Source of the DNA: an uncultured Mollicutes bacterium
Lineage (GTDB): Bacteria > Bacillota_I > Bacilli_A > RF39 > UBA660
Direction of reading: 5' to 3'
DNA: 64,000 nt
Assembly: GCA_947652375.1 (NCBI GenBank)
Contig: CANTCS010000003.1
Span: forward strand, 4,914 to 68,913
In this document: positions 53,314 to 64,000 of the stretch, one piece after another
Layout: every line of letters begins with the position of its first letter
Position numbering within the stretch: position 1 is the first letter of the stretch
Position numbers and translations under genes: made by a program
The notes under the pieces: generated by a model
The model's database searches: none
The model's input: only the letters and a program-made list of their open reading frames with translations
Told to the model about the DNA's origin: nothing

Positions 53314-54180
53314 ATGAAGAGGAAATTATTAATTATTTTAGAAATAATAGTTATTATATTTGCATCTCTTTATTATTTAGTAAAAGAAGTAATACCTGAA
53401 TATAAAAAGAATAAAGGTTCAAGTGATGGTTTTGTTAATACAAAAATAATTTCTAATACAATTGAATTTAAAATAAATAATAATGTTAATTTTGCAATTT
53501 TATTAACTGAAGATAATCAGTTAGAACATATTTTATTTTTTGATGAAAAATCTTTATGTTTGTATAATAAAAATATTGAGAATAAAAAAATAGCGGAATC
53601 TTTAGAAATAATAATTAAATTGTTAATTGAAAATAATTTTTTAGATAGTTTTTCAAATTTAGAAATAATAAGATATGAAAATGATAATTATGTGGAATTT
53701 TTAAATGTTTTATCAATAATACTTAAGAAATATGAAATAAATTGTAAAGTTATTGAGACAGTTAAAAATCTTGAAGATAAAGTTCAAGAATTAGATTTGG
53801 ATTATGAGGAATTTAGTGCTTTAATAAATTTAGATTATTATTCTAAAGAGATAATAAAAGAATATAAAAGTAAAGAAAAGCATTTTAAGAATGAGAAATT
53901 AAATTATGATAATGCAATTACTTTTACAAATAATGTTTATAAAAAACTTGAAAAGTACATTAAAGATAGTAATATTCAAAATCTTGACAAGGATAATACA
54001 GAATTATTAATTACGATGATACCTAGTGATAGTAATGGTAATTATTATCCTACTGATAAGAGTTGGTATTTAGTTGATAGTGGTAAGGTTTATGCTTATA
54101 TTGAACTTATTTATAATAATCAAAGTTTTGGGTACTGTTATAATGGTTCAATTGATTTAGTAAAAGAAGGTGTATGTTAA
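53314..54180 (+). CDS. hypothetical N-anchored protein (288 aa)
   Basis: One N-terminal TM. No motifs. Follows the PBP gene after 8 nt. Confidence 0.5.
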   Translation: MKRKLLIILEIIVIIFASLYYLVKEVIPEYKKNKGSSDGFVNTKIISNTIEFKINNNVNFAILLTEDNQLEHILFFDEKSLCLYNKNIENKKIAESLEIIIKLLIENNFLDSFSNLEIIRYENDNYVEFLNVLSIILKKYEINCKVIETVKNLEDKVQELDLDYEEFSALINLDYYSKEIIKEYKSKEKHFKNEKLNYDNAITFTNNVYKKLEKYIKDSNIQNLDKDNTELLITMIPSDSNGNYYPTDKSWYLVDSGKVYAYIELIYNNQSFGYCYNGSIDLVKEGVC

Positions 54181-54708
54181 ATGGTGAAAATGATTAATAT
54201 AAGAAATAGTATTATAGCGATTCTTTGTGGGACTATAATATTTATGGCGATTGGTTTTATGGTTTTATCGGTAAGACTTGATAATAAAAATAAAGAGATT
54301 AATAGTTATAAAGTTATTTTTAAAGAGGTAATTAAAGATTCTTCAACTAGAGGTGGAAATATTGAACCAAAGGGATTAGTGGATATTGCTGCTAATGGTA
54401 AAGAGTTAGATATGAATTTTACTTTATATAATGCTAATGATGAATTAAGTTATATAATTAAGATTAAAAATGAGGGGACAGTTAAGGCTAGGATAGTTGA
54501 TTTATTAGGAAGTCCCGATTATCAAAATGTTGAATATAAATACATTATTGATCCTGTTGTAATAACTTCTAATAATTTGGTAAAAAAGGAACTTGCTCCT
54601 TTAGAGGAGATAGATTTAAAAATTTCAGTTAAATATAGTCCATCAATAAAAACTGGGGTGAGAACTTTTAATTATAAATTAGGTTTAATTACAGAATTTG
54701 TAAATTGA
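54181..54708 (+). CDS. hypothetical N-anchored beta-rich protein (175 aa)
   Basis: Starts directly after the upstream stop. One TM, then SYIIKIKNEGTVKARIVDL-type beta strands. Confidence 0.5.
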   Translation: MVKMINIRNSIIAILCGTIIFMAIGFMVLSVRLDNKNKEINSYKVIFKEVIKDSSTRGGNIEPKGLVDIAANGKELDMNFTLYNANDELSYIIKIKNEGTVKARIVDLLGSPDYQNVEYKYIIDPVVITSNNLVKKELAPLEEIDLKISVKYSPSIKTGVRTFNYKLGLITEFVN

Positions 54709-55015: not shown

Positions 55016-56227
55016 TTGAAAATAAATATTACTGAAGCAATGCCAGGAATGGTTCTTGATAAACCTGTTGTAAGAGGGAATGTAATATTAGTAGAAAAGG
55101 GAGAAACTTTATCTTTGCCTTTAATTGATAAATTAGAAAAGCGTTTTAGAATAGAAACTATTGATATCGTTTCTAATGAAAAAACAGAGGTTGATAGTAA
55201 TAGTAATACAATTAGTGAGCAATTAATTAGATCTACAAAAACAGCGTTATTAGAATATGATGCTACAAAAATTGAAGAAAATGCATCTTCAATGGTATCG
55301 GCAATTTTAAAAAATGTTGATTTTAATGGTAGTTTTTCTAATTTGAAATTTAATTTAGAAGCTTGTAAAGATAAAACAGATGAAATAGATGCTTGCTTAG
55401 ACCACTCAATTAGAGTAGCAACTTTTTCTATAATTTTGGCTTATCTATATAATGAAAGAATTAAAAGAGATGTAAGAGAATTAAGTGAATTGAAATTAAG
55501 ATTAATAGATTATCGTGATATTACTATTGCAAGTTTGTTACATGATAGTGGGCAATTTAATCAAAGTGAAGAAATTTTGAAAATGGTTAAAGCTTTAACT
55601 AAAACTACAAAATTAGTTAATATGCTTTATAACATTAATGATATTCCTACGGATAGATTTGATAATAAATATAAAGAGTTTTATTCTTTTTGTGTAGCAA
55701 CTAAGCTTTATGATATTAATTATGATATGCGATATATGATTTTATTTTCTGATGAAAATGAAAATAATACTGGTCCTTTAAAACCAAAAGCTTTTGATGA
55801 TAAAAAAACTCATAGATGTGTTGTAGGAGCAAAAATTATTCGTCTTGTTAATCTTTATGATAACTATTTATCGCATTGTATTAATAATGGGGATGGCTTA
55901 GAAAATATAGTAGCAATATTGGGACAAGCTTCTATTAATGGAGTAGTTAATAAACAACTAACTGATCTATTTTTAGAAAATATTCCAATTTATCCAGTAG
56001 GAACTAAAGTTGTTCTTTCTAATGGTGAAAGGGCGGTTGTTGTAAAACCTTTTACTGGGTATACTTATGCTTCGAGACCAGTAGTTAGATTACTAAATAG
56101 TAATAAAATTGTTCGATTAAATGAAGAAAATTCAATAGTAATTTTGGGTGTTGCTGATGAAAATGTTGATATGGTTGTTAATGACCAATTGAAAGATGTT
56201 GATACTCATATTTCAAAGAGAAGATAA
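55016..56227 (+). CDS. HD-domain protein with HD-GYP-like architecture but a degenerate HHE/GYP region
   Basis: TTG start after an AAAGGAGG RBS. N-terminal MPGMVLDKPV..G..L..KG domain, HD residues (LDHSIRVA, LLHDSGQ), C-terminal YPVGTKVVLSNGERAVVV. Where HHExxDGxGYP would be expected, the sequence reads FSDENENNTGPLKP. Confidence 0.6.
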   Translation: MKINITEAMPGMVLDKPVVRGNVILVEKGETLSLPLIDKLEKRFRIETIDIVSNEKTEVDSNSNTISEQLIRSTKTALLEYDATKIEENASSMVSAILKNVDFNGSFSNLKFNLEACKDKTDEIDACLDHSIRVATFSIILAYLYNERIKRDVRELSELKLRLIDYRDITIASLLHDSGQFNQSEEILKMVKALTKTTKLVNMLYNINDIPTDRFDNKYKEFYSFCVATKLYDINYDMRYMILFSDENENNTGPLKPKAFDDKKTHRCVVGAKIIRLVNLYDNYLSHCINNGDGLENIVAILGQASINGVVNKQLTDLFLENIPIYPVGTKVVLSNGERAVVVKPFTGYTYASRPVVRLLNSNKIVRLNEENSIVILGVADENVDMVVNDQLKDVDTHISKRR

Positions 56228-56417: not shown

Positions 56418-56870
56418 ATGATAGATAAATTATTGGATGAGGCTATTAATGAAGCTAAAATTGGAGTTATGGAAAAACATGGAGGTCCATTTGGTGCAGT
56501 AATTGCGGATTCTCAGGGAAATATTATTAGTAGGGGACACAATGAAGTTTTAGTTAGCCATGATCCAACTATGCATGCGGAAGTTAATGCGATTAGAAAA
56601 GCTTGTCAAAAATTAAAAACAACTGATCTATCTCAGTATGTAATCTATAGTAGTTGTGAGCCTTGTCCAATGTGTTTGTCTGCTATAATTTGGGCTAATA
56701 TAAAAGTAATGTATTTTGGGGCGACTAGAAAAGATGCTGATAAAATTGGTTTTAAAGATAATATTATTTATGAATTCCTTGCTCATAAAAATCAAATTCT
56801 TAAATCTAATTATATATCGAAGATAGAATGTAGTGAAATGATGGAGAAGTATGAGGGGGAAATTTATTAA
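56418..56870 (+). CDS. guaD: guanine deaminase (CDA-fold, GuaD type)
   Basis: GGPFGAVI, HAEVNAIRKA, CEPCPMCLSAI. About 150 aa. Confidence 0.8.
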   Translation: MIDKLLDEAINEAKIGVMEKHGGPFGAVIADSQGNIISRGHNEVLVSHDPTMHAEVNAIRKACQKLKTTDLSQYVIYSSCEPCPMCLSAIIWANIKVMYFGATRKDADKIGFKDNIIYEFLAHKNQILKSNYISKIECSEMMEKYEGEIY

Positions 56871-57364
56871 TGCCAAAGATGAAAAAAAAGCATAAAAAAT
56901 TTTTAAATAGTTATAATATATTACTAATTGTATTTATTCTTTTAATAATATTAGTTTTATTTTTGAGTTTTTTGATTTATAGAAAAAAGAAAGAAAACGA
57001 GGGGAAAATTGTTGCTAATATATTAATTCCATTAGTAATTAAGGAAAAAGATAGAAATTTGAGTCTAAATGCAATTGAGTTAGTAAATAAAGATGATTAT
57101 ATTTTAAAAATTACTAATTATCGTGGAGATAATATTAATAGTGAAGAAATGCCTTATAATATTACTATAACAAATAATTCTAAATTAAAGGTTTTTGTAA
57201 GAAAAGATTCAAGTAAAGATAATTTAATGATTGATCAAAAAGCTACTACTATTACTGATTTAAATTTAAAGGCTAAAAAGAAGCAAGAAGATTATTATTT
57301 TATTAAAATAACAGGGAAAAATGCTAAAAAAGATGATAAAATAAATATTACAGTAACAAGTTAG
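56870..57364 (+). CDS. hypothetical N-anchored beta-rich protein (164 aa)
   Basis: K-rich N-terminus, one TM, DYILKITNYRGDNI motif resembling NYLLQIDNYNRNDI of ORF 18303-18893. Confidence 0.5.
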   Translation: MPKMKKKHKKFLNSYNILLIVFILLIILVLFLSFLIYRKKKENEGKIVANILIPLVIKEKDRNLSLNAIELVNKDDYILKITNYRGDNINSEEMPYNITITNNSKLKVFVRKDSSKDNLMIDQKATTITDLNLKAKKKQEDYYFIKITGKNAKKDDKINITVTS

Positions 57365-57382: not shown

Positions 57383-57405
57383 GTCAATATAATTGACTTT
57401 TTTTT
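57383..57405 (+). terminator. weak AT-rich terminator
   Basis: GTCAAT-ata-ATTGAC followed by T8. Confidence 0.45.
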
Positions 57406-57456
57406 ATTAAAATGTTAAACTATAAAGGGATAATTGAAGAATTAGGAGGATTTAAG

Positions 57457-57747
57457 ATGGATGATACAGCGATATATAATGGAGAAAAAGTAATTTTAGA
57501 AAAAAATAATGAAGAAGTTGAATGTGATGTGTTATTTACTTTTGATTGTGAAGATACAATGAGATCTTATGTCGGTTATACTGATCATAGTATGGGAAAA
57601 AATGGTCGAAAAAATATTTATGTATCTAGTTATAGTCCTTTTGATAAGAAACAAGAACTTGTGAATGTAACAGATGAAAGAGAACTTGCAATGATAGCTG
57701 AAGTTTTAGAAGAAATAGATGAGAGTACAGAACAAAAAAGTAAGTAA
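57457..57747 (+). CDS. DUF1292-family small acidic protein
   Basis: GGAGG RBS before ATG 57457 (track start is 57412). Pattern ...EVECDVLFTFDCED...YVGYTD......IYVSSY....ELVNVTDERELAMIAEVLEE. Confidence 0.6.
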   Translation: MDDTAIYNGEKVILEKNNEEVECDVLFTFDCEDTMRSYVGYTDHSMGKNGRKNIYVSSYSPFDKKQELVNVTDERELAMIAEVLEEIDESTEQKSK

Positions 57748-57758
57748 GGAGTTTAATT

Positions 57759-60700
57759 ATGGAAGAATTTGATTTTTTTGATACGGATTATGATGAGAAG
57801 ATTTTAGCAAAGCAAATAATAAGAATAGATCAGAAGTTTAAAGATCTAGAAGATGCTAGAAATATTATTTTTGAAAAATTAGAAGAGAGTGGTAATTTTT
57901 TTGAAAATAGTGAAAATTTAAGTATAAAGTGTAAAATTGTTGAAGAACAAGAAGATGGTTATCTATTAGATGTTACTGTACTAGAAGAAACTGTAGTTAA
58001 AGTTCCTTACAAAATAGAGAAAGAAGAAGTTTTTAGTGGTTCATTTACTTTAGAAAATGGAATGACTGAAGAAGAACAAAAAAGAAAAGTATTTGAATTA
58101 ATGATGGCAGATGGTATACAAATTGTTGGTACTAAATATGATATTCAATATGATGAGATACTTGATGAAGATAGGGAAACAAAAATAAATTTTGTGGTAA
58201 GTAAGGGAGTAAATATTAATAGTAGTAAACCAGAAATTATTTATAAAGAAATTTCTAAAGGTAAGATTGTGCCAGTTTATAGCTTTAATGAAGATATCTA
58301 TCTGGGAAAAATAAAAATTGAGGAATTACAAGAAGTAAGTTCAGAAAATGAACGATCAAATTTAATGTTAGAAAAAGCAAGGCTTGATGGAATTGAGATA
58401 GATAATTTAACTAATTTAGTTATTGGTATTTCTGGATATAATGATGATTTTATTACATATGTTATTTCAAAAACAAATGAAATAGAGGCAATAGTAGAGC
58501 AAGCGAGATTACAAAAGGATGAAATAATTGAGACATCTGTAGTAGGAACTGGTAGTATTGATTTTGGGGAATCAATAGAAGCAGCTGTACAAAGAAATAG
58601 TGGGATAGATATCCGAAGTAGTGCTAATTATATCATTATTTTTGATGAAACTCATACACAAAAATATACTTTACATAAAGTAAGTATAAAAAAGAATAAT
58701 ATGACAATCCCTAGTTCTTTACTTTTAAATACTTTAAATAGTGAATTGTCTTCGAATCAATTGAAAGAGATAGATTTTGATATTGAAAAATTACATCAGG
58801 AAATTGTAGAATTAGAACACACACTTTCATCTAGTTTTAACAAATTAATAGAACGAGAGGATAAAATTAGTCAAATACTTGATAAAGATTTATTATTGAG
58901 TGATGATGAGATCGTAAGTTTATATGAAAAATATTATAATGAGCAACGAGAAGATTATTTAAATAAAATTTTATTAGAAAGAAGAATTAAAGAAAAAAAC
59001 AAGAAATTAAAGAGACTTTTAAAATTAAAGAAGAAAAAAGAAAAGGAATTATTAACAGCAAAAGAGATGGGATTATCTTTAGATGAATATTTAGATATAG
59101 TAAATATTGTAGAAGATAATGGTTTCTTTAAGAAGATGTTAGATCAACTTGAAATTGGCAATATTCTTGAAAAAGATTCAGAAGAAAGATCTAGAAAAGA
59201 TAAAAAAATTCTAAGAAAAGTAAAAAAAGAAATTATTGAAGAAATAGCTTTAAGATATAAGAAAGATAATTTACCAATTTTAGAAATAGTTGAGGAATTA
59301 TTTGATTTAGATGTTTCAAATGGAAATGCACTAGAAAATGTTAGTGTTTTATATGATCCAAGTTCAGAAGTTACTATAGTCGAAGAACCTAAAACTTATA
59401 ATACTCAACTTGCTGAAATAGAAAGAATAGAAAAAAATGTAGCAAGTTTACCAGAAAAAGTTGTTAATGTTGGAGCTACAGGCGAGTATGAACCTTTAAA
59501 AGCTCCAGATGATATGGTAGAGGTTTATGATAATAATGTTATTTTATATGAAGATTCAATAAACTCGAATTTCTATGTTAATGAGAGAATTCTTAAGTTA
59601 TTTAATATAGAAAAAAGTGATGATGAAATTTCTATTAATGATGAAATTCTATATCGAATAGAGTATGATGATGCTCAATTTATTATGAATAATGCTAGTA
59701 GTAACTCTTATTCTTATACTAGAGTTGAAATAGTAGAAGAAGATAAAACAGAAGAGGATGCAGAAGATATTTTTGAAGATGATCAAGATAATCTAGAAAA
59801 GATTACTATTTATGTTGATCGAGTTACTGGTGAGTTTTATGCTAAAAAGTATGTATTTATAAGATTTAATGCGGTAGCTTCAAACCAAGTTATTATTAAT
59901 GATAAGACATGCTATAAACTTGATTTAGAAGATTTTAGATTTATTGCCGATAATTTTAATAATGAATATTCACCTTATGTTTTAGATTATCAATATGTAG
60001 ATATCAAAAGGGAAGAAGATTCCTTACATAATGATGATAAAAATGAAGAAGTTATAATGACTTTCTACAGAGATTTAAATGATAATAATCAGATTTATGT
60101 TTCAACAGAAATTTTAAATCTATTTGAATTAACTCCTAATAATGAGGAAATTGAAATAGATGATGAACGTTGTTATAAATTAAGTAATGATGCAGTTCAA
60201 TTAATTACTAATATAGCTAAGAAAAGTGAAAATCCAAAATATATAATTAAATTTGAGAATATAAGTATAAATAAGAAAGTTAGACCTCATGTTGAAACTG
60301 TTCTTAATAAACTAACAGAAAATTTAGATATTGGTGCTAAAGATTATAAAAGATTTACTGCTAGTAATATAAAGGTTTCTAAAGAGTTTGTTAAGGAATT
60401 AAAATCTGGTAATTATTTATATAATATTGTTCATATAATTCCTTCTCTTGCGAAAGCAACTTTTAAATTTCTTCGTAAATTATGTGCTAAATTATTTCTT
60501 TCTAAACGTGGAAAGAAAGTAATGTTAGAATTAGAGCGAAGATTAAATGAAGAGTTAACTGAGGAAGAGATTGAAGTTTTATTTGACGAATATAAGGGAA
60601 CTCAATTAAAGACAGATATGAATAATCAGATTAATGGAATGATTTTAAAAAAATTAAGACAGCATGGTTTAGAAAAAGTTGAAAAATTAAATGATGCAAT

Positions 60701-62063
60701 AAAAGATGATTATTCTAATTTATTTACTTTATTAGGATCAATAAAAACTATTGATAGAGAAAAACAATATGATGATTTAACCGAAAAAGAATTTAATGCT
60801 TTAGAATTAGAAAAAAAAAGTTTAATTGATCAAGCTGCAGAAAGAATTAAAAATATATTAATTTGTAGAAAAGATGCTAATAATTTGTTATCTGGAGGAG
60901 TTCACGGTTTAGAAGAGGATTTCAAAGCTGTTGCAACAAAACTTTCTTATGTTGGAATGCGATTTGCAAAAAATAATAAATTTGATAATGAATTACAACA
61001 TGAGTTAAGTGAGTATGGTAGTGGAATTACTAGAGCTTTAGAGAATGGTGATAATGAAGCACTTTTGGAAAATTTTATGGGTTTGGAGAGTTGTTATTTT
61101 GATAATACTAAAATAAAGACTGGACTTACTGGTAAAAGAAGTGTTGGTAGTAAATATTATTCTCCTTTAGCTGAACAGTTTGATTATCGTGATGATCCGT
61201 TCATTAGAGATATTTTTACAACAGTAGCGTTATCTTCTTCTATGGTTAGTATGGTTAATTCTTATAGAGTTCATCAAATAGAGGCTAATGAAGTTTTAGC
61301 AAAACAACAAAGTGAAGTAGAGAAGGTTAATAATTCTTATGATTATATTGATCAAGCTTCATCAGAAATTAGTAATAATAAAGATATAATTCAAGAGGGG
61401 TTAAAAGCTCAGTCTCATCAAGATGTTTTGACATCTGCGACAACAATAGAAAGATCTGCTTTAGATATGAATAATTGGAGTTTTAATAATGCGTATCATC
61501 AAGCAGATGATTTAGGACATAATTTTTATAATCAATTTCATCAAAATGTTACTAACAGCATAAATGATATAACATCTAAATATGGAAACGGAACAATCGA
61601 TCAGTTTGAAGCTCTTCAAAGTATTACTGATATTGCGAATAATGCTCAAAGTTCTTTAATTAAAGTTTGTAATGAATGTAGTGGAATAATGAAAACTTAT
61701 GCAGAGAATCATCCTAATTTTGATTTAAGAGGTATTCAAGAGTCTTTAGATTATATTTTAGAGCATCCTGATGCTTTAAGTAAAATGAATCAAGCAATGA
61801 CAGATACGATAAAAATAAGTAATGGTTTACAAGGATTAAGTAAGAATCATATAGAGGCTTTATCAAGTTTACCAAGTGATATTTTATCAACAGTTGTGTG
61901 TGCTGCTTCTGCAGCAGGCTTGGCCCTTAATGTTTCTCATTCATTAAATAAAAAATATTTAAAAAAGAATGATTATAGAAATGATGTTGTTGAAATGATG
62001 GAACAATATTTAAATGGTTTTGATTATCAAGATAATGAAAATGAATTAGCAAAAAAGAGATAA
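57759..62063 (+). CDS. orphan 1,434-aa acidic repeat-containing protein with a C-terminal hydrophobic anchor
   Basis: GGAG RBS and no signal peptide. Four PepSY-like alpha/beta modules (aa about 20-310), a K/E coiled coil (aa about 330-500), three repeats of about 75 aa (aa 587-838), a helical C-terminal region and a single TM ILSTVVCAASAAGLALNV (nt 61881-61934). Confidence 0.8.
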   Translation: MEEFDFFDTDYDEKILAKQIIRIDQKFKDLEDARNIIFEKLEESGNFFENSENLSIKCKIVEEQEDGYLLDVTVLEETVVKVPYKIEKEEVFSGSFTLENGMTEEEQKRKVFELMMADGIQIVGTKYDIQYDEILDEDRETKINFVVSKGVNINSSKPEIIYKEISKGKIVPVYSFNEDIYLGKIKIEELQEVSSENERSNLMLEKARLDGIEIDNLTNLVIGISGYNDDFITYVISKTNEIEAIVEQARLQKDEIIETSVVGTGSIDFGESIEAAVQRNSGIDIRSSANYIIIFDETHTQKYTLHKVSIKKNNMTIPSSLLLNTLNSELSSNQLKEIDFDIEKLHQEIVELEHTLSSSFNKLIEREDKISQILDKDLLLSDDEIVSLYEKYYNEQREDYLNKILLERRIKEKNKKLKRLLKLKKKKEKELLTAKEMGLSLDEYLDIVNIVEDNGFFKKMLDQLEIGNILEKDSEERSRKDKKILRKVKKEIIEEIALRYKKDNLPILEIVEELFDLDVSNGNALENVSVLYDPSSEVTIVEEPKTYNTQLAEIERIEKNVASLPEKVVNVGATGEYEPLKAPDDMVEVYDNNVILYEDSINSNFYVNERILKLFNIEKSDDEISINDEILYRIEYDDAQFIMNNASSNSYSYTRVEIVEEDKTEEDAEDIFEDDQDNLEKITIYVDRVTGEFYAKKYVFIRFNAVASNQVIINDKTCYKLDLEDFRFIADNFNNEYSPYVLDYQYVDIKREEDSLHNDDKNEEVIMTFYRDLNDNNQIYVSTEILNLFELTPNNEEIEIDDERCYKLSNDAVQLITNIAKKSENPKYIIKFENISINKKVRPHVETVLNKLTENLDIGAKDYKRFTASNIKVSKEFVKELKSGNYLYNIVHIIPSLAKATFKFLRKLCAKLFLSKRGKKVMLELERRLNEELTEEEIEVLFDEYKGTQLKTDMNNQINGMILKKLRQHGLEKVEKLNDAIKDDYSNLFTLLGSIKTIDREKQYDDLTEKEFNALELEKKSLIDQAAERIKNILICRKDANNLLSGGVHGLEEDFKAVATKLSYVGMRFAKNNKFDNELQHELSEYGSGITRALENGDNEALLENFMGLESCYFDNTKIKTGLTGKRSVGSKYYSPLAEQFDYRDDPFIRDIFTTVALSSSMVSMVNSYRVHQIEANEVLAKQQSEVEKVNNSYDYIDQASSEISNNKDIIQEGLKAQSHQDVLTSATTIERSALDMNNWSFNNAYHQADDLGHNFYNQFHQNVTNSINDITSKYGNGTIDQFEALQSITDIANNAQSSLIKVCNECSGIMKTYAENHPNFDLRGIQESLDYILEHPDALSKMNQAMTDTIKISNGLQGLSKNHIEALSSLPSDILSTVVCAASAAGLALNVSHSLNKKYLKKNDYRNDVVEMMEQYLNGFDYQDNENELAKKR

Positions 62064-62066
62064 ATG

Positions 62067-62096
62067 AAAGCTATTAGTTTACTAATGGCTTTTATT
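62067..62096 (+). terminator. terminator after the 1,434-aa ORF
   Basis: AAAGCTATTAGT-tt-ACTAATGGCTTT (12 bp, one G-U pair) followed by T-rich sequence. Confidence 0.6.
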
Positions 62097-62143
62097 TATA
62101 AATTAGGATTTGAATCTATATTTTTTAAAGGTTGGTGGATGTT

Positions 62144-64000
62144 TTGAAAAATAAAAAGAATGGTGGATTTACATTAATAGAATTACTTGCGGTAATAGTT
62201 ATTTTGGGAATTCTTATAGTAGTTACAGTTCCTTCTTTATCTAGATTAATAAAGAAGACTAAAGATGAAAATAGAGAAAGTAGTAGAAATACTTTAGAAA
62301 TGGCTGCTAAAAGTTATGCGGAAAATAATAAAAAAGTTTTGCCAAAAAGTATTGGTGAAATTAAAACGATTAAGATAGCTGATTTAAAGAATGCAAATTT
62401 TTTAAAAGAAGATATTAAAAGTGCTGATAAAGAATCATGTATGAAAAATTCTTATGTTAAAATTTTTAAATATGATAAAGATAAATATAATTTTGTAACT
62501 TATTTGTATTGTGGTGATGAAGTTCCTGATGAGGATGATGAGAAATATAATTCAAAAATTGCGATAAGTTTTACTGATGGTAATGATCAGGAACTTGATA
62601 TAGCTAAAAATAAAGTAACTTCTGCAAAAGTTAAGATTAAGTTTGAAAGTGGTTTAGATCAAGCGAAAGAAAAAGTTGGTTTACATGGTTATAATTATAT
62701 TATTCGTGTAAAATATACTGATGATAAAGATTATTTAGAAATATATAATTCGGGTTCCATTAATGCTTATGGAAAAGAGGTAATTGAAGTAAATAAAAAT
62801 ATTTCTAAGTATATTGATATTAAAGGCGCAACAGATATAGAAGTAATTGCTGAAGTTTATGATAGAGCTGGTAATTATAAAAAATTACAAAAAAGAGCTA
62901 AATATAAAGACAAAGAAGCTCCAAAATGTGGTGAAGTTATTGGTGAAGCTATAGATGAGAATGATTGGGATGGTAGTATTAAAAGAAGAACTATTTCTGT
63001 TAAGTGTTTTGATGAGGGTGGAAGTGGTTGTATTAAAGATACTTTTACAAAAACTTTTACAAAAGAGACTGAATGGGATTATATTACAATAAAAGATAAT
63101 GCAGGAAATAGTGCTAAATGTAAAGTTAGGGTTAATTTAGATTGGACGCCTCCTAGTTTAATTATAAAAGCCTTTAAAAAAGGAACAAATGAAGAAGTTG
63201 GTGAGGCTCATGCAGATGCAGATAAAAAAAATGAGGAGCTAAAAAAATATAAAAATGGTTATGGTAATGATAATTGGTTAAATAAAGCTAACTATCCTAA
63301 TGGAATATATTATAAGGTTATTGTCGATGAAGATAATACTATTGGGAAATTAACAACTAATAAAACAGGATTATTAAAAAGTTCTACTGATGTTAAAGTT
63401 TTAGATTTTAATAATTATCCAAATAATTTTGACAATATTAGAGAATTTACTTTTACAGAAGATGGTTATAGAAATGCTAAATATAGCTTAATGGATAAGG
63501 CTAAGAATGAAGTTACAATTAGTATAACAGCTGCAATTGATAGGGTAGCTCCAACTACTCCAATTGTTAGATTTTGGAAAAAGAAATCAATAGTGAATAT
63601 TACTAGTTCAGCTGGGTTAACAGAATCATACTCTCCTGGAACTTTGAATAATGAATCTTGGTCTAATAAATTTTTATTTGTTGAGGCTACAGGCTCTACG
63701 GATGCAATTTCTCAACTTAATGGTTATCGATATAAAATAGGCAGTAATCCAGAAGGAAATGGTTCATTTTATAATTTCAATAGTAATGTTAAAAATCAAA
63801 GTATTCAATTTAAGGCGTGTGATAATGCAGGAAATTGTTCAGGCTTTGTTCCTGGTAATGGTAATAATTTGATTTCTATTGATACTACTCCTCCGAAGTG
63901 TACCATAAATACTACACCAGATGGTTATATAAGTGGTAAATGGACTAATCAAGATGTTAAAGTGACAGCAACGTGTAAGGATACTGTAAGTGGCTGTACA
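62144..64000 (+). CDS. giant modular type IV prepilin-like protein (at least 619 aa, 3' end outside the window)
   Basis: Not in the ORF track. Hand translation from TTG 62144 (or in-frame GTG 62135) to 64000 meets no stop. N-terminus is MKNKKNGG|FTLIELLAVIVILGILIVVTVP, a class III signal with Glu at +5. It is followed by Ig-like modules bounded by D..(A/P)P and carrying D.AGN and C.D..SGC motifs. Confidence 0.8.
   Translation, partial: MKNKKNGGFTLIELLAVIVILGILIVVTVPSLSRLIKKTKDENRESSRNTLEMAAKSYAENNKKVLPKSIGEIKTIKIADLKNANFLKEDIKSADKESCMKNSYVKIFKYDKDKYNFVTYLYCGDEVPDEDDEKYNSKIAISFTDGNDQELDIAKNKVTSAKVKIKFESGLDQAKEKVGLHGYNYIIRVKYTDDKDYLEIYNSGSINAYGKEVIEVNKNISKYIDIKGATDIEVIAEVYDRAGNYKKLQKRAKYKDKEAPKCGEVIGEAIDENDWDGSIKRRTISVKCFDEGGSGCIKDTFTKTFTKETEWDYITIKDNAGNSAKCKVRVNLDWTPPSLIIKAFKKGTNEEVGEAHADADKKNEELKKYKNGYGNDNWLNKANYPNGIYYKVIVDEDNTIGKLTTNKTGLLKSSTDVKVLDFNNYPNNFDNIREFTFTEDGYRNAKYSLMDKAKNEVTISITAAIDRVAPTTPIVRFWKKKSIVNITSSAGLTESYSPGTLNNESWSNKFLFVEATGSTDAISQLNGYRYKIGSNPEGNGSFYNFNSNVKNQSIQFKACDNAGNCSGFVPGNGNNLISIDTTPPKCTINTTPDGYISGKWTNQDVKVTATCKDTVSGCT

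What the first reader, a model, noticed from the sequence alone, without database searches (positions are those of the whole stretch)
57457..62096. Orphan 1,434-aa repeat-built, C-terminally anchored protein downstream of a DUF1292 gene
Seen in sequence: a single uninterrupted 4.3-kb ORF with a good RBS, no signal peptide and no nucleotide-binding motif that I can find. Its regions are:
- aa about 20-310: four similar modules of about 60-70 aa, each an acidic helix followed by G-I-x-I and then beta strands. Examples are TEEEQKRKVFELMMADGIQIVGTKYDIQYDE and SENERSNLMLEKARLDGIEIDNLTNLVIGISGY. These are PepSY-like in pattern.
- aa about 330-500: K/E-rich coiled coil.
- aa 587-838 (nt 59517-60272): three clear repeats sharing (F)Y(V/A)..(R/K/E)IL.LF........I.I(N/D)D...Y(R/K)(I/L)...D(A/F).(F/L)I.N.
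- aa about 870-1370: a Q/N/S-rich helical region.
- nt 61881-61934: one hydrophobic segment, followed by a 38-aa basic/acidic tail.

A hairpin terminator follows at 62067-62096. I recognise no family for any part. The tail-anchored topology with a huge cytoplasmic portion is inference. It lies directly beside a giant prepilin-like gene, which may or may not be functionally linked given the terminator between them.
Basis: partly seen in the sequence, partly recalled or inferred. Interest (0 to 1): 0.6.

Follow-up and report, generated by a model that had tools for sequence, protein, structure and literature searches.

The report
Giant unknown protein paired with DUF1292
This is a real 1,434-residue gene, not an orphan: it belongs to an undescribed protein family of uncultured gut and rumen bacteria that is always encoded right behind a small DUF1292 protein, and its function is still untested.

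Summary
The ORF (57759-62063, +, 1,434 aa) is real, intact in metagenome contigs from four studies, and under purifying selection (dN/dS about 0.17).

It is not an orphan. A word-index search found 85 relatives. A profile of its C-terminal 594 residues found 329 clusters among 1.84 billion representatives. None of 50 members scanned has a Pfam domain.

The family is defined by a conserved all-helical C-domain (aa 841-1434). The N-terminal modules vary.

A specialised DUF1292 paralogue sits 11-18 nt upstream wherever the contig allows. The pair lies downstream of mraZ-rsmH-ftsL-pbp2B. The neighbouring pilin gene is not a conserved neighbour.

The tail-anchor idea is weak. The hydrophobic helix is only marginally hydrophobic across the family, and a second such helix lies about 200 residues upstream.

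My best reading is a DUF1292-coupled cytoplasmic scaffold held at the membrane by its C-domain. That is inference.

This scan noted the same family before on another genome (e1-4552419).

The binding test between the two proteins never ran, because the tool's queue stayed full.

The parts
57457..57747 (+). DUF1292 gene (96 aa from the ATG at 57457; the mechanical ORF starts at 57412). It is the specialised paralogue that always precedes the large gene.
   Evidence: PF06949 scores 35.6 bits against a cut-off of 24. AGGAGG lies before the ATG at 57457. Fifteen orthologues are 52-69% identical. It is one of four DUF1292 copies in the genome.
57746..57751 (+). Ribosome-binding site AAGGAG of the large gene. 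It overlaps the DUF1292 stop codon, and the intergenic gap is 11 nt.
   Evidence: Read from the sequence. A gap of 11-18 nt with GGTGGTG or GGAGG is seen in 13 of 14 related loci.
57759..62063 (+). The large gene, 1,434 aa plus stop.
   Evidence: It is intact in contigs from four studies. Of 36 listed strain variants, 21 are synonymous and 15 non-synonymous.
58020..58172 (+). N-terminal module copy, aa 88-138.
   Evidence: Family profile E 8e-18. Aligned with homologous modules in A5.
58290..58448 (+). N-terminal module copy, aa 178-230.
   Evidence: Family profile E 4e-10.
58749..59516 (+). K/E/L-rich helical region with a conserved motif block, aa 331-586.
   Evidence: Composition. It is conserved in homologues at 23-36% identity, and a family consensus is visible in A1.
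59538..59744 (+). Repeat 1, aa 594-662.
   Evidence: Profile E 8e-17. The AlphaFold2 model has a core pLDDT of about 90.
59796..60014 (+). Repeat 2, aa 680-752.
   Evidence: Profile E 1e-23. Core pLDDT is above 90.
60057..60278 (+). Repeat 3, aa 767-840.
   Evidence: Profile E 1e-23. Core pLDDT is above 90.
60279..62060 (+). Conserved all-helical C-domain that defines the family, aa 841-1434.
   Evidence: It is 37-58% identical in 15 orthologues. A profile of it finds 329 clusters, and in all 150 listed hits it lies at the C-terminal end of the protein. Strain variants here are 10 synonymous to 1 non-synonymous.
61194..61268 (+). Moderately hydrophobic helix H1, aa 1146-1170, preceded by the invariant FDYRDDPF motif.
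61872..61946 (+). Hydrophobic helix H2, aa 1372-1396, preceded by the conserved LPSD motif and followed by a basic stretch.
62060..62099 (+). An 18-bp A+T-rich hairpin followed by a U-rich tract. It looks like a terminator.
   Evidence: -20.4 kcal/mol, z = -5.2, and 0 of 200 shuffles fold as well. The consensus scan did not call it.

Best explanation
The gene encodes a member of an undescribed protein family found, among the genomes searched, in only one family of small-genome gut and rumen Bacilli. It works as a two-gene module with a dedicated DUF1292 paralogue encoded 11 nt upstream.

I think the large protein is a cytoplasmic 'beads-on-a-string' scaffold. Its variable N-terminal modules, a helical region and 1-10 copies of a roughly 70-residue alpha/beta repeat would hang from a conserved 590-residue helical C-domain. 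That domain would hold the protein at or in the cell membrane through two moderately hydrophobic helices (aa 1146-1170 and 1372-1396). The small acidic DUF1292 protein would bind it as a partner or chaperone. The module would act in cell-envelope growth or division.

SHOWN: the gene is real and under selection; the family and its domain layout; the fixed pairing with DUF1292; the conserved position downstream of the division/cell-wall genes.

INFERRED: cytoplasmic location, membrane attachment, physical binding to DUF1292, and any role in the envelope.
For: GENE AND SELECTION
- The gene is intact in contigs from four studies. One run shows a single in-frame 3-nt deletion.
- dN/dS is about 0.17. 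Variants in the C-domain are 10 synonymous to 1 non-synonymous.

FAMILY
- 85 relatives were found by word index.
- 83 of those 85 share the C-terminal stretch at 37-59% identity.
- 329 clusters have E <= 1e-3 and 221 have E <= 1e-30. The domain is always C-terminal.
- The repeat occurs in 1-10 copies in 122 of 219 family proteins.

PAIRING WITH DUF1292
- DUF1292 is directly upstream in 14 of 17 loci. Two of the other three are cut by a contig end and one is broken.
- It is also directly upstream in 5 of 5 more distant loci.
- The gap is 11-18 nt in 13 of 14 loci.
- Among 301 genomes of the same family, 17 carry the high-scoring DUF1292 paralogue (at least 91 bits; the next best is 83). Fourteen of these are among the 17 genomes positive for the large gene.
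- The other three are explained: one has a truncated form of the large gene, one has the gene cut by a contig end, and one contig ends 700 nt after DUF1292.

GENOMIC CONTEXT
- mraZ, rsmH, ftsL and a PASTA-bearing PBP2B lie upstream in the window.
- The order PBP2B, h288, h175, tm164, DUF1292, large gene is kept across genera.

LOCATION
- No signal peptide.
- No WXG100 or YukC/EssB marker in the genome.
- Net charge is positive after H2 (median +2) and negative before H1 (median -2).
Against: - The two hydrophobic helices are only marginally hydrophobic. Family medians are 1.33 and 1.21, and 11% and 9% of 214 members reach 1.6. They may be buried helices of a soluble bundle.
- The C-domain model is poor (mean pLDDT 61.9, pTM 0.42), and both helices fall in parts with pLDDT below 50.
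- The link to the envelope rests on gene order alone.
- A variable slot, which in the window holds an HD-like gene and a deaminase gene, separates the pair from the PBP2B group. A weak hairpin with a T-run lies between tm164 and DUF1292, so the pair may be its own transcription unit.
- The family is patchy: 17 of 301 genomes and 14 of 214 genera in its own family.
- Natural forms exist that lack most of the C-domain, so it is dispensable.
- No experiment or expression data exist.
Confidence: 0.4

Rival explanations
1. It is a soluble cytoplasmic structural or scaffold protein with no membrane insertion. The two 'hydrophobic' helices are core helices of a helical bundle or oligomerisation domain, and DUF1292 is its partner.
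For: Family median hydrophobicity of both helices is 1.2-1.3, below the usual 1.6. The helices are rich in Ala, Ser and Thr. The whole C-domain is predicted helical. The most conserved motifs have the lowest model confidence, which is what one expects for interfaces.
Against: In this protein H2 reaches 1.74. A conserved LPSD motif precedes it and a basic stretch follows it, as is typical of membrane helices. A conserved domain at the C-terminus with a variable N-terminus suits an anchor.
Confidence: 0.3
2. It is an exported surface protein (adhesin-like), released by a route that needs no signal peptide and possibly linked to the neighbouring pilin-type genes.
For: Some homologues have Pro/Thr-rich or acidic low-complexity linkers between repeats. 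Repeat copy number varies from 1 to 10. N-terminal strain variants are 11 synonymous to 14 non-synonymous. A giant prepilin-like gene follows in the window, and a pilin-like gene follows in 1 of 5 distant loci.
Against: There is no signal peptide. No WXG100 or YukC/EssB marker was found in a genome that is 93.6% complete. Pilin is not a conserved neighbour: 0 of 14 loci by motif and 0 of 17 by tblastn. A strong hairpin separates the two genes.
Confidence: 0.1
3. It tethers nucleic acid to the membrane, with the repeats acting as DNA- or RNA-binding units.
Confidence: 0.05
4. It is cargo of a phage or other mobile element, for example a tape-measure-like protein, a toxin or a defence protein.
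For: It is large, repetitive and patchily distributed. One genome has extra copies, one of them with internal stops.
Against: It has no PHROGs hit and no PADLOC hit. Its chromosomal position beside PBP2B is the same across genera. It is single-copy in this genome. No mobile-element genes appear in the flanks examined.
Confidence: 0.03

Closest known systems
Canonical DUF1292 (YrzB / UPF0473, PF06949) operon of Firmicutes: IreB/ReoM-like gene, ruvX, DUF1292, mltG
   Same: A small acidic DUF1292 protein is encoded directly upstream of a larger gene with an envelope link. This genome has the canonical arrangement as well, on another contig.
   Different: Here the downstream partner is the 1,434-aa protein, not MltG. 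The paired DUF1292 forms a separate high-scoring group (at least 91 bits against 83 or less for the other copies). My three literature searches found no functional study of DUF1292. I saw listings, plus one passage that merely names a DUF1292 gene.
Membrane-anchored helical division scaffolds of Firmicutes (EzrA, MapZ, DivIVA/GpsB type). Their properties are recalled, not from a call.
   Same: They are long, mostly helical cytoplasmic proteins encoded near division and cell-wall genes, and they are thought to organise other proteins at the membrane.
   Different: No profile of these families matches (Pfam and NCBIfam at E <= 1). In those proteins the anchor, where there is one, is N-terminal or central. 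They have no repeat modules of this kind and no DUF1292 partner.
Cytoskeletal giant proteins of the Mycoplasma terminal organelle (HMW1, HMW2, P200). Recalled, not from a call.
   Same: They are large, acidic, lack a signal peptide and are modular, with coiled coil and acidic or proline-rich linkers. They occur in small-genome relatives of Bacilli.
   Different: No sequence relation was seen in any search here. This organism has a cell wall: PBP2B and a Mur ligase are present. No specific comparison was run.
Tail-anchored membrane proteins
   Same: No signal peptide, a large N-terminal part, and a hydrophobic helix 41 residues from the C-terminus followed by basic residues.
   Different: The helix is only marginally hydrophobic across the family. 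A second similar helix lies about 200 residues upstream, so if both insert, the protein forms a hairpin with an outside loop rather than a tail anchor.
   Same: A helix followed by beta strands is suggested by the sequence pattern.
   Different: There is no Pfam match at E <= 1 and no PDB sequence match for the module profile (best E 0.53). The modules sit in a protein without a signal peptide. The module's fold was not predicted here.

Membership tests
Unnamed family of this protein (defined here by the C-domain) | A roughly 590-residue helical C-domain with invariant motifs (SGN.LYN.VH, GVHG.EEDFKA, FDYRDDPF, LPSD) at the C-terminal end | tested here: met
   The window protein matches the profile over positions 1-593 (E 2e-279). 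61 columns are invariant in 16 sequences.
Unnamed family of this protein (defined here by the C-domain) | A dedicated DUF1292 paralogue directly upstream | tested here: met
   The gap in the window is 11 nt. The pairing holds in 14 of 17 and 5 of 5 other loci.
DUF1292 (PF06949), for the upstream gene | Pfam profile match above the gathering score | tested here: met
   35.6 bits against a cut-off of 24, E 1.7e-8.
PepSY (PF03413), for the N-terminal modules | Pfam profile match | tested here: not met
   The whole protein matches 0 Pfam families at E <= 1.
PepSY (PF03413), for the N-terminal modules | PepSY fold (a helix packed on a beta sheet) | not tested
Tail-anchored membrane protein | A single clearly hydrophobic transmembrane helix near the C-terminus and no other | tested here: inconclusive
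   H2 scores 1.74 here, but the family median is 1.21. A second helix, H1, scores 1.26. No dedicated topology predictor was available.
Phage tail tape-measure or other phage protein | Match to a phage protein family profile | tested here: not met
   0 PHROGs families at E <= 1.
Known anti-phage defence proteins | Match to a PADLOC model | tested here: not met
   0 models at E <= 0.1 for the large protein, DUF1292 and tm164.
P-loop or Rossmann nucleotide-binding proteins | Walker A or GxGxxG motif | tested here: not met
   Neither pattern occurs in the 1,434 residues.
ESCRT-III / helical-hairpin proteins (top structural rows for the C-domain) | Fold match well above background that covers a domain | tested here: inconclusive
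Rho-independent terminator (hairpin at 62060-62099) | A stable stem-loop followed by a U tract | tested here: inconclusive
   A stable 18-bp stem (z = -5.2) with a U-rich 3' side is present. It is A+T-rich and the consensus scan did not call it.

The most novel reading that the evidence does not exclude
The DUF1292 paralogue and the giant protein form a previously undescribed two-protein module of the cell envelope or division apparatus in a large group of uncultured small-genome gut Bacilli. It is built from at least two folds without a solved counterpart: the roughly 70-residue repeat and the 590-residue helical domain. It would also give the first functional handle on DUF1292, a widespread Firmicute family with no known role, as an adaptor that works with the membrane-associated protein encoded behind it (MltG in the canonical operon, this protein here).
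Probability: 0.25. Interest if true: 0.7.

Novelty: new variant of a known kind. Interest (0 to 1): 0.45.

Why it matters
DUF1292 is conserved across Firmicutes next to ruvX and mltG, and my searches found no study of its function. A second, obligate pairing of a DUF1292 paralogue with an unrelated large protein suggests that DUF1292 proteins act with the product of the gene behind them. That idea can be tested directly.

The large protein is a sizeable 'dark' family: 329 clusters with no Pfam domain. It includes a confidently predicted repeat fold with no clear solved counterpart. It occurs in host-associated bacteria that have never been cultured, and it sits beside their division genes.

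If it is an envelope scaffold, it would be a lineage-specific addition to a machinery usually considered conserved. If it is not, it remains an ordinary conserved hypothetical protein.

Tried and rejected
PROFILE AND SEQUENCE SEARCHES OF THE WHOLE PROTEIN
- Pfam: nothing.
- NCBIfam: only chance-level rows, best E 0.024.
- PHROGs: nothing.
- PADLOC: nothing.
- PDB sequences with the single protein: best E 0.24.
- PDB sequences with the C-domain profile: best hits are designed proteins at E 0.003.
- PDB sequences with the N-module profile: best E 0.53.

ESM ATLAS
- C-domain: best score 0.75, an unnamed cluster.
- aa 1-330: no usable hit.

FOLD SEARCHES
- C-domain model, Foldseek against PDB: 0 hits at E <= 1e-3.
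- C-domain model, VIA-align: only a generic helical hairpin.
- Repeat model, Foldseek against PDB: 0 hits at E <= 1e-3.
- Repeat model, viral library: one uncharacterised giant-virus protein at E 7.7e-4 with TM 0.2.
- These blanks do not prove that the folds are new.

PROFILE-PROFILE AND PAIRWISE COMPARISONS
- DUF1292 against the repeats: probability 0.1.
- DUF1292 against the N-modules: probability 0.1.
- The 390-aa protein behind another DUF1292 copy against this protein: E 0.84.
- BLASTP of the protein against itself found no internal repeat at E <= 0.01. The repeats only showed with family profiles.

EXPRESSION
No RNA holder was listed among the public runs. This says nothing about expression.

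BINDING TEST
Complex prediction for DUF1292 with C-domain residues 1-320 never ran, because the queue was full at every attempt. Binding therefore remains untested.

PROMOTERS
The scan found 69 sites against 57.6 +/- 7.6 in shuffles. This is not informative.

LITERATURE
Searches for DUF1292, yrzB/UPF0473 and lmo1501 gave listings only. One passage merely names a DUF1292 gene as a neighbour. Two look-ups in PMC8528326 found the terms absent from its main text. Its supplements were not opened.
Full report
THE OBSERVATION

An AAGGAG sits 7 nt upstream and overlaps the stop codon of the preceding gene. That preceding gene matches DUF1292 (PF06949, 35.6 bits against a cut-off of 24). Its likely start is the ATG at 57457 behind an AGGAGG, which is the finding's start coordinate.

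The protein begins with an acidic stretch and has no hydrophobic leader. It carries no Walker A or GxGxxG motif. It is acidic overall, with D+E 19% against K+R 12%.

IS IT A REAL GENE?

Contigs from four public metagenome studies, mostly labelled mouse gut, cover the whole stretch without frameshifts. One run carries a single in-frame 3-nt deletion at 60027.

Of the 36 strain differences listed inside the coding region, 21 are synonymous and 15 are not. This gives dN/dS of about 0.17. Twenty-one further rows of that table were not shown to me. In the C-terminal 594 codons the split is 10 to 1, and in the rest it is 11 to 14.

So the gene is under purifying selection. Selection is strong on the C-terminal part and relaxed on the N-terminal part. 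No RNA run was listed, so expression is untested.

NOT AN ORPHAN

The word-index search returned 85 proteins of 969-2,064 residues at E <= 1e-135. They are unnamed or called 'hypothetical protein' from 'Bacilli bacterium' MAGs.

BLASTP shows what they share. In 83 of 85, the stretch from about aa 841 to the end matches at 37-59% identity. The N-terminal parts match at 20-43% identity, in shifted and repeated registers.

A profile of the C-terminal domain was built from 16 sequences and run over 1.84 billion representatives. It found 329 proteins at E <= 1e-3 and 221 at E <= 1e-30. In the 150 listed, the domain always sits at the C-terminal end, behind N-terminal parts ranging from none to about 1,400 residues.

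None of 50 members scanned has any Pfam domain.

ANATOMY

Family profiles confirm three repeats at aa 594-662, 680-752 and 767-840, with E-values of 8e-17 to 1e-23. The same unit occurs in 1-10 copies in 122 of 219 family proteins.

AlphaFold2 on an alignment of this region gives mean pLDDT 82.6, with repeat cores above 90. Each unit has the order beta-beta-alpha-beta-beta-alpha-beta.

The fold has no clear match:
- Foldseek against the PDB: best E 0.1.
- Viral library: only uncharacterised proteins.

No PepSY or other profile matches them.

The most conserved motifs are GVHG.EEDFKA and FDYRDDPF. They fall in the least confident parts of the model. That would fit interfaces, but it is only a hint.

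IS IT ANCHORED?

A second segment at aa 1148-1166 scores 1.26.

Across 214 family members the medians are 1.21 and 1.33, and only 9% and 11% reach 1.6. The stretch after the second helix is basic (median net +2), and the stretch before the first is acidic (median net -2). About 206 residues lie between the two helices.

If both helices insert, the protein would be a membrane hairpin with a Q/N/S-rich loop outside and everything else inside. If neither inserts, it is soluble. I cannot decide this with the tools at hand. 'Tail-anchored' as stated is not established.

NEIGHBOURS

The window upstream holds ftsA, ftsZ, a Mur ligase, a MurJ-like flippase, and then mraZ, rsmH, ftsL and a PASTA-bearing PBP2B. 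Three small proteins with N-terminal membrane anchors and no known family follow (h288, h175, tm164). An HD-like gene and a deaminase gene lie between them.

In 17 related loci from uncultured mouse, rabbit, sheep, yak, cattle-rumen and human gut MAGs, the order PBP2B, h288, h175, tm164, DUF1292, large gene recurs. DUF1292 lies directly upstream in 14 of 17. Two of the other three are cut by contig ends and one is broken. The gap between the two genes is 11-18 nt, with a GGTGGTG or GGAGG site, in 13 of 14.

Five more distant loci all show the pair.

The genome has four DUF1292 copies. One sits in the canonical arrangement of an IreB/ReoM-like gene, ruvX, DUF1292 and mltG.

The copy next to the large gene forms a distinct group. 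In 301 genomes of the same GTDB family, 17 have a match of at least 91 bits, and the next best is 83. Fourteen of these 17 are among the 17 genomes in which the C-domain was found. The other three are explained as follows:
- One has a truncated 611-aa form directly behind DUF1292.
- One has the large gene cut off by the contig end.
- One contig ends 700 nt after DUF1292.

One C-domain-positive genome without a high-scoring DUF1292 has a diverged copy, 36% identical, in the expected place. Two incomplete genomes were not checked.

The pilin gene is not part of this. None of 14 loci with downstream ORFs has a prepilin motif there. None of 17 matches the window's pilin by tblastn, and only 1 of 5 distant loci does. 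In the window, a stable hairpin lies between the two genes.

DISTRIBUTION

The C-domain was found only in the organism's own GTDB family:
- Class sample: 5 of 49 genomes of that family, against 0 of 350 genomes from 29 other families.
- Phylum sample: 2 of 16, against 0 of 383. The two samples overlap.
- Inside the family: 17 of 301 genomes and 14 of 214 genera.

These are samples of mostly incomplete MAGs, so the result is 'not found in those searched', not 'absent'.

Natural short forms keep DUF1292, the N-terminal parts and only the first 40-140 residues of the C-domain.

WHAT IT MOST LIKELY IS

The evidence is:
- a conserved C-terminal domain behind a variable N-terminus;
- no signal peptide;
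- no type VII secretion markers in the genome;
- a tightly coupled small partner gene;
- a fixed place beside the division and wall genes.

I read this as a cytoplasmic modular scaffold, attached to the membrane by its C-domain, that works with its DUF1292 partner in envelope growth or division (confidence 0.4).

The family, its layout, the pairing and the synteny are shown. Location, binding and role are inferred.

Rivals are a soluble scaffold (0.3), an exported surface protein (0.1), a nucleic-acid tether suggested by recurring but sub-threshold fold rows (0.05), and mobile-element cargo (0.03).

The one computation that could have tested binding, co-folding of DUF1292 with the C-domain, never ran because the tool's queue was full.

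COMPARISON AND NOVELTY

No described family fits the large protein.

The nearest known arrangement is the canonical DUF1292 operon, in which the small protein precedes MltG. This locus is a second, lineage-specific pairing of a DUF1292 paralogue with a different large protein. For that reason I class it as a new variant of a known kind rather than as categorically new.

My literature searches found no functional work on DUF1292 and none on this family.

This scan had already noted the same family on another genome (e1-4552419). Its reading, a linked pair and a candidate envelope scaffold, agrees with what I found independently here.

What this report adds:
- the family's size;
- selection data;
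- the repeat fold;
- the co-occurrence count;
- the truncated natural forms;
- the weakness of the membrane-anchor argument.

Noticed in passing
window 53314-54180, 54181-54708, 56870-57364: Three small proteins with an N-terminal membrane anchor and no Pfam family (288, 175 and 164 aa) follow PBP2B. They are conserved in the same order in most related loci, whether or not the large gene is complete.
   Followed up: partly
L034:8715-10550 (-); L028 and L029 behind DUF1292: Natural short forms of the large gene exist. One, in a genome of the same genus, is 611 aa with an N-module, the helical region, two repeats and only about 40 residues of the C-domain. Others are about 374-389 aa in another genus. 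All sit directly behind the paired DUF1292.
   Followed up: partly
L033:311-1480 (-) and L033:1489-1758 (-): Another DUF1292 copy in this genome is followed by a 390-aa acidic protein with tandem 'VEVAPVAESVEVPVSSEEVVP'-like repeats. That protein is unrelated to the large protein (E 0.84).
   Followed up: partly
L031: The genome also has the canonical operon: an IreB/ReoM-like gene, ruvX, DUF1292 and an MltG-like gene.
   Followed up: no
window 62132-64000: A giant prepilin-type gene (N-terminal methylation motif, more than 622 aa) runs off the window. No poly-G run is visible in the 36 nt upstream here.
   Followed up: no
window 57383-57410: A short hairpin (GTCAAT/ATTGAC) followed by a run of eight T lies between tm164 and DUF1292. 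It may be a weak terminator that sets the pair apart as its own unit. I saw it by eye only.
   Followed up: no
G448, contig C74: One genome of the family has extra matches to the C-domain on another contig. One of them has three internal stops, so it may be a decaying duplicate.
   Followed up: no
L009:9224-10000 and L004:9227-10003: Some homologues have long Pro/Thr-rich or Pro/Val-rich tandem linkers between the repeats and the C-domain. Such linkers are more usual in surface proteins.
   Followed up: no
L006 and L017 record titles: Two records that hold this Bacilli-type gene are labelled Muribaculaceae and Sangeribacter (Bacteroidota). This probably reflects binning or labelling errors.
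   Followed up: no
window 55016-56227: A 403-aa protein with only a faint HD-domain match (E 0.16) fills a variable slot between h175 and the deaminase gene. It is present in 1 of 17 related loci by tblastn.
   Followed up: no
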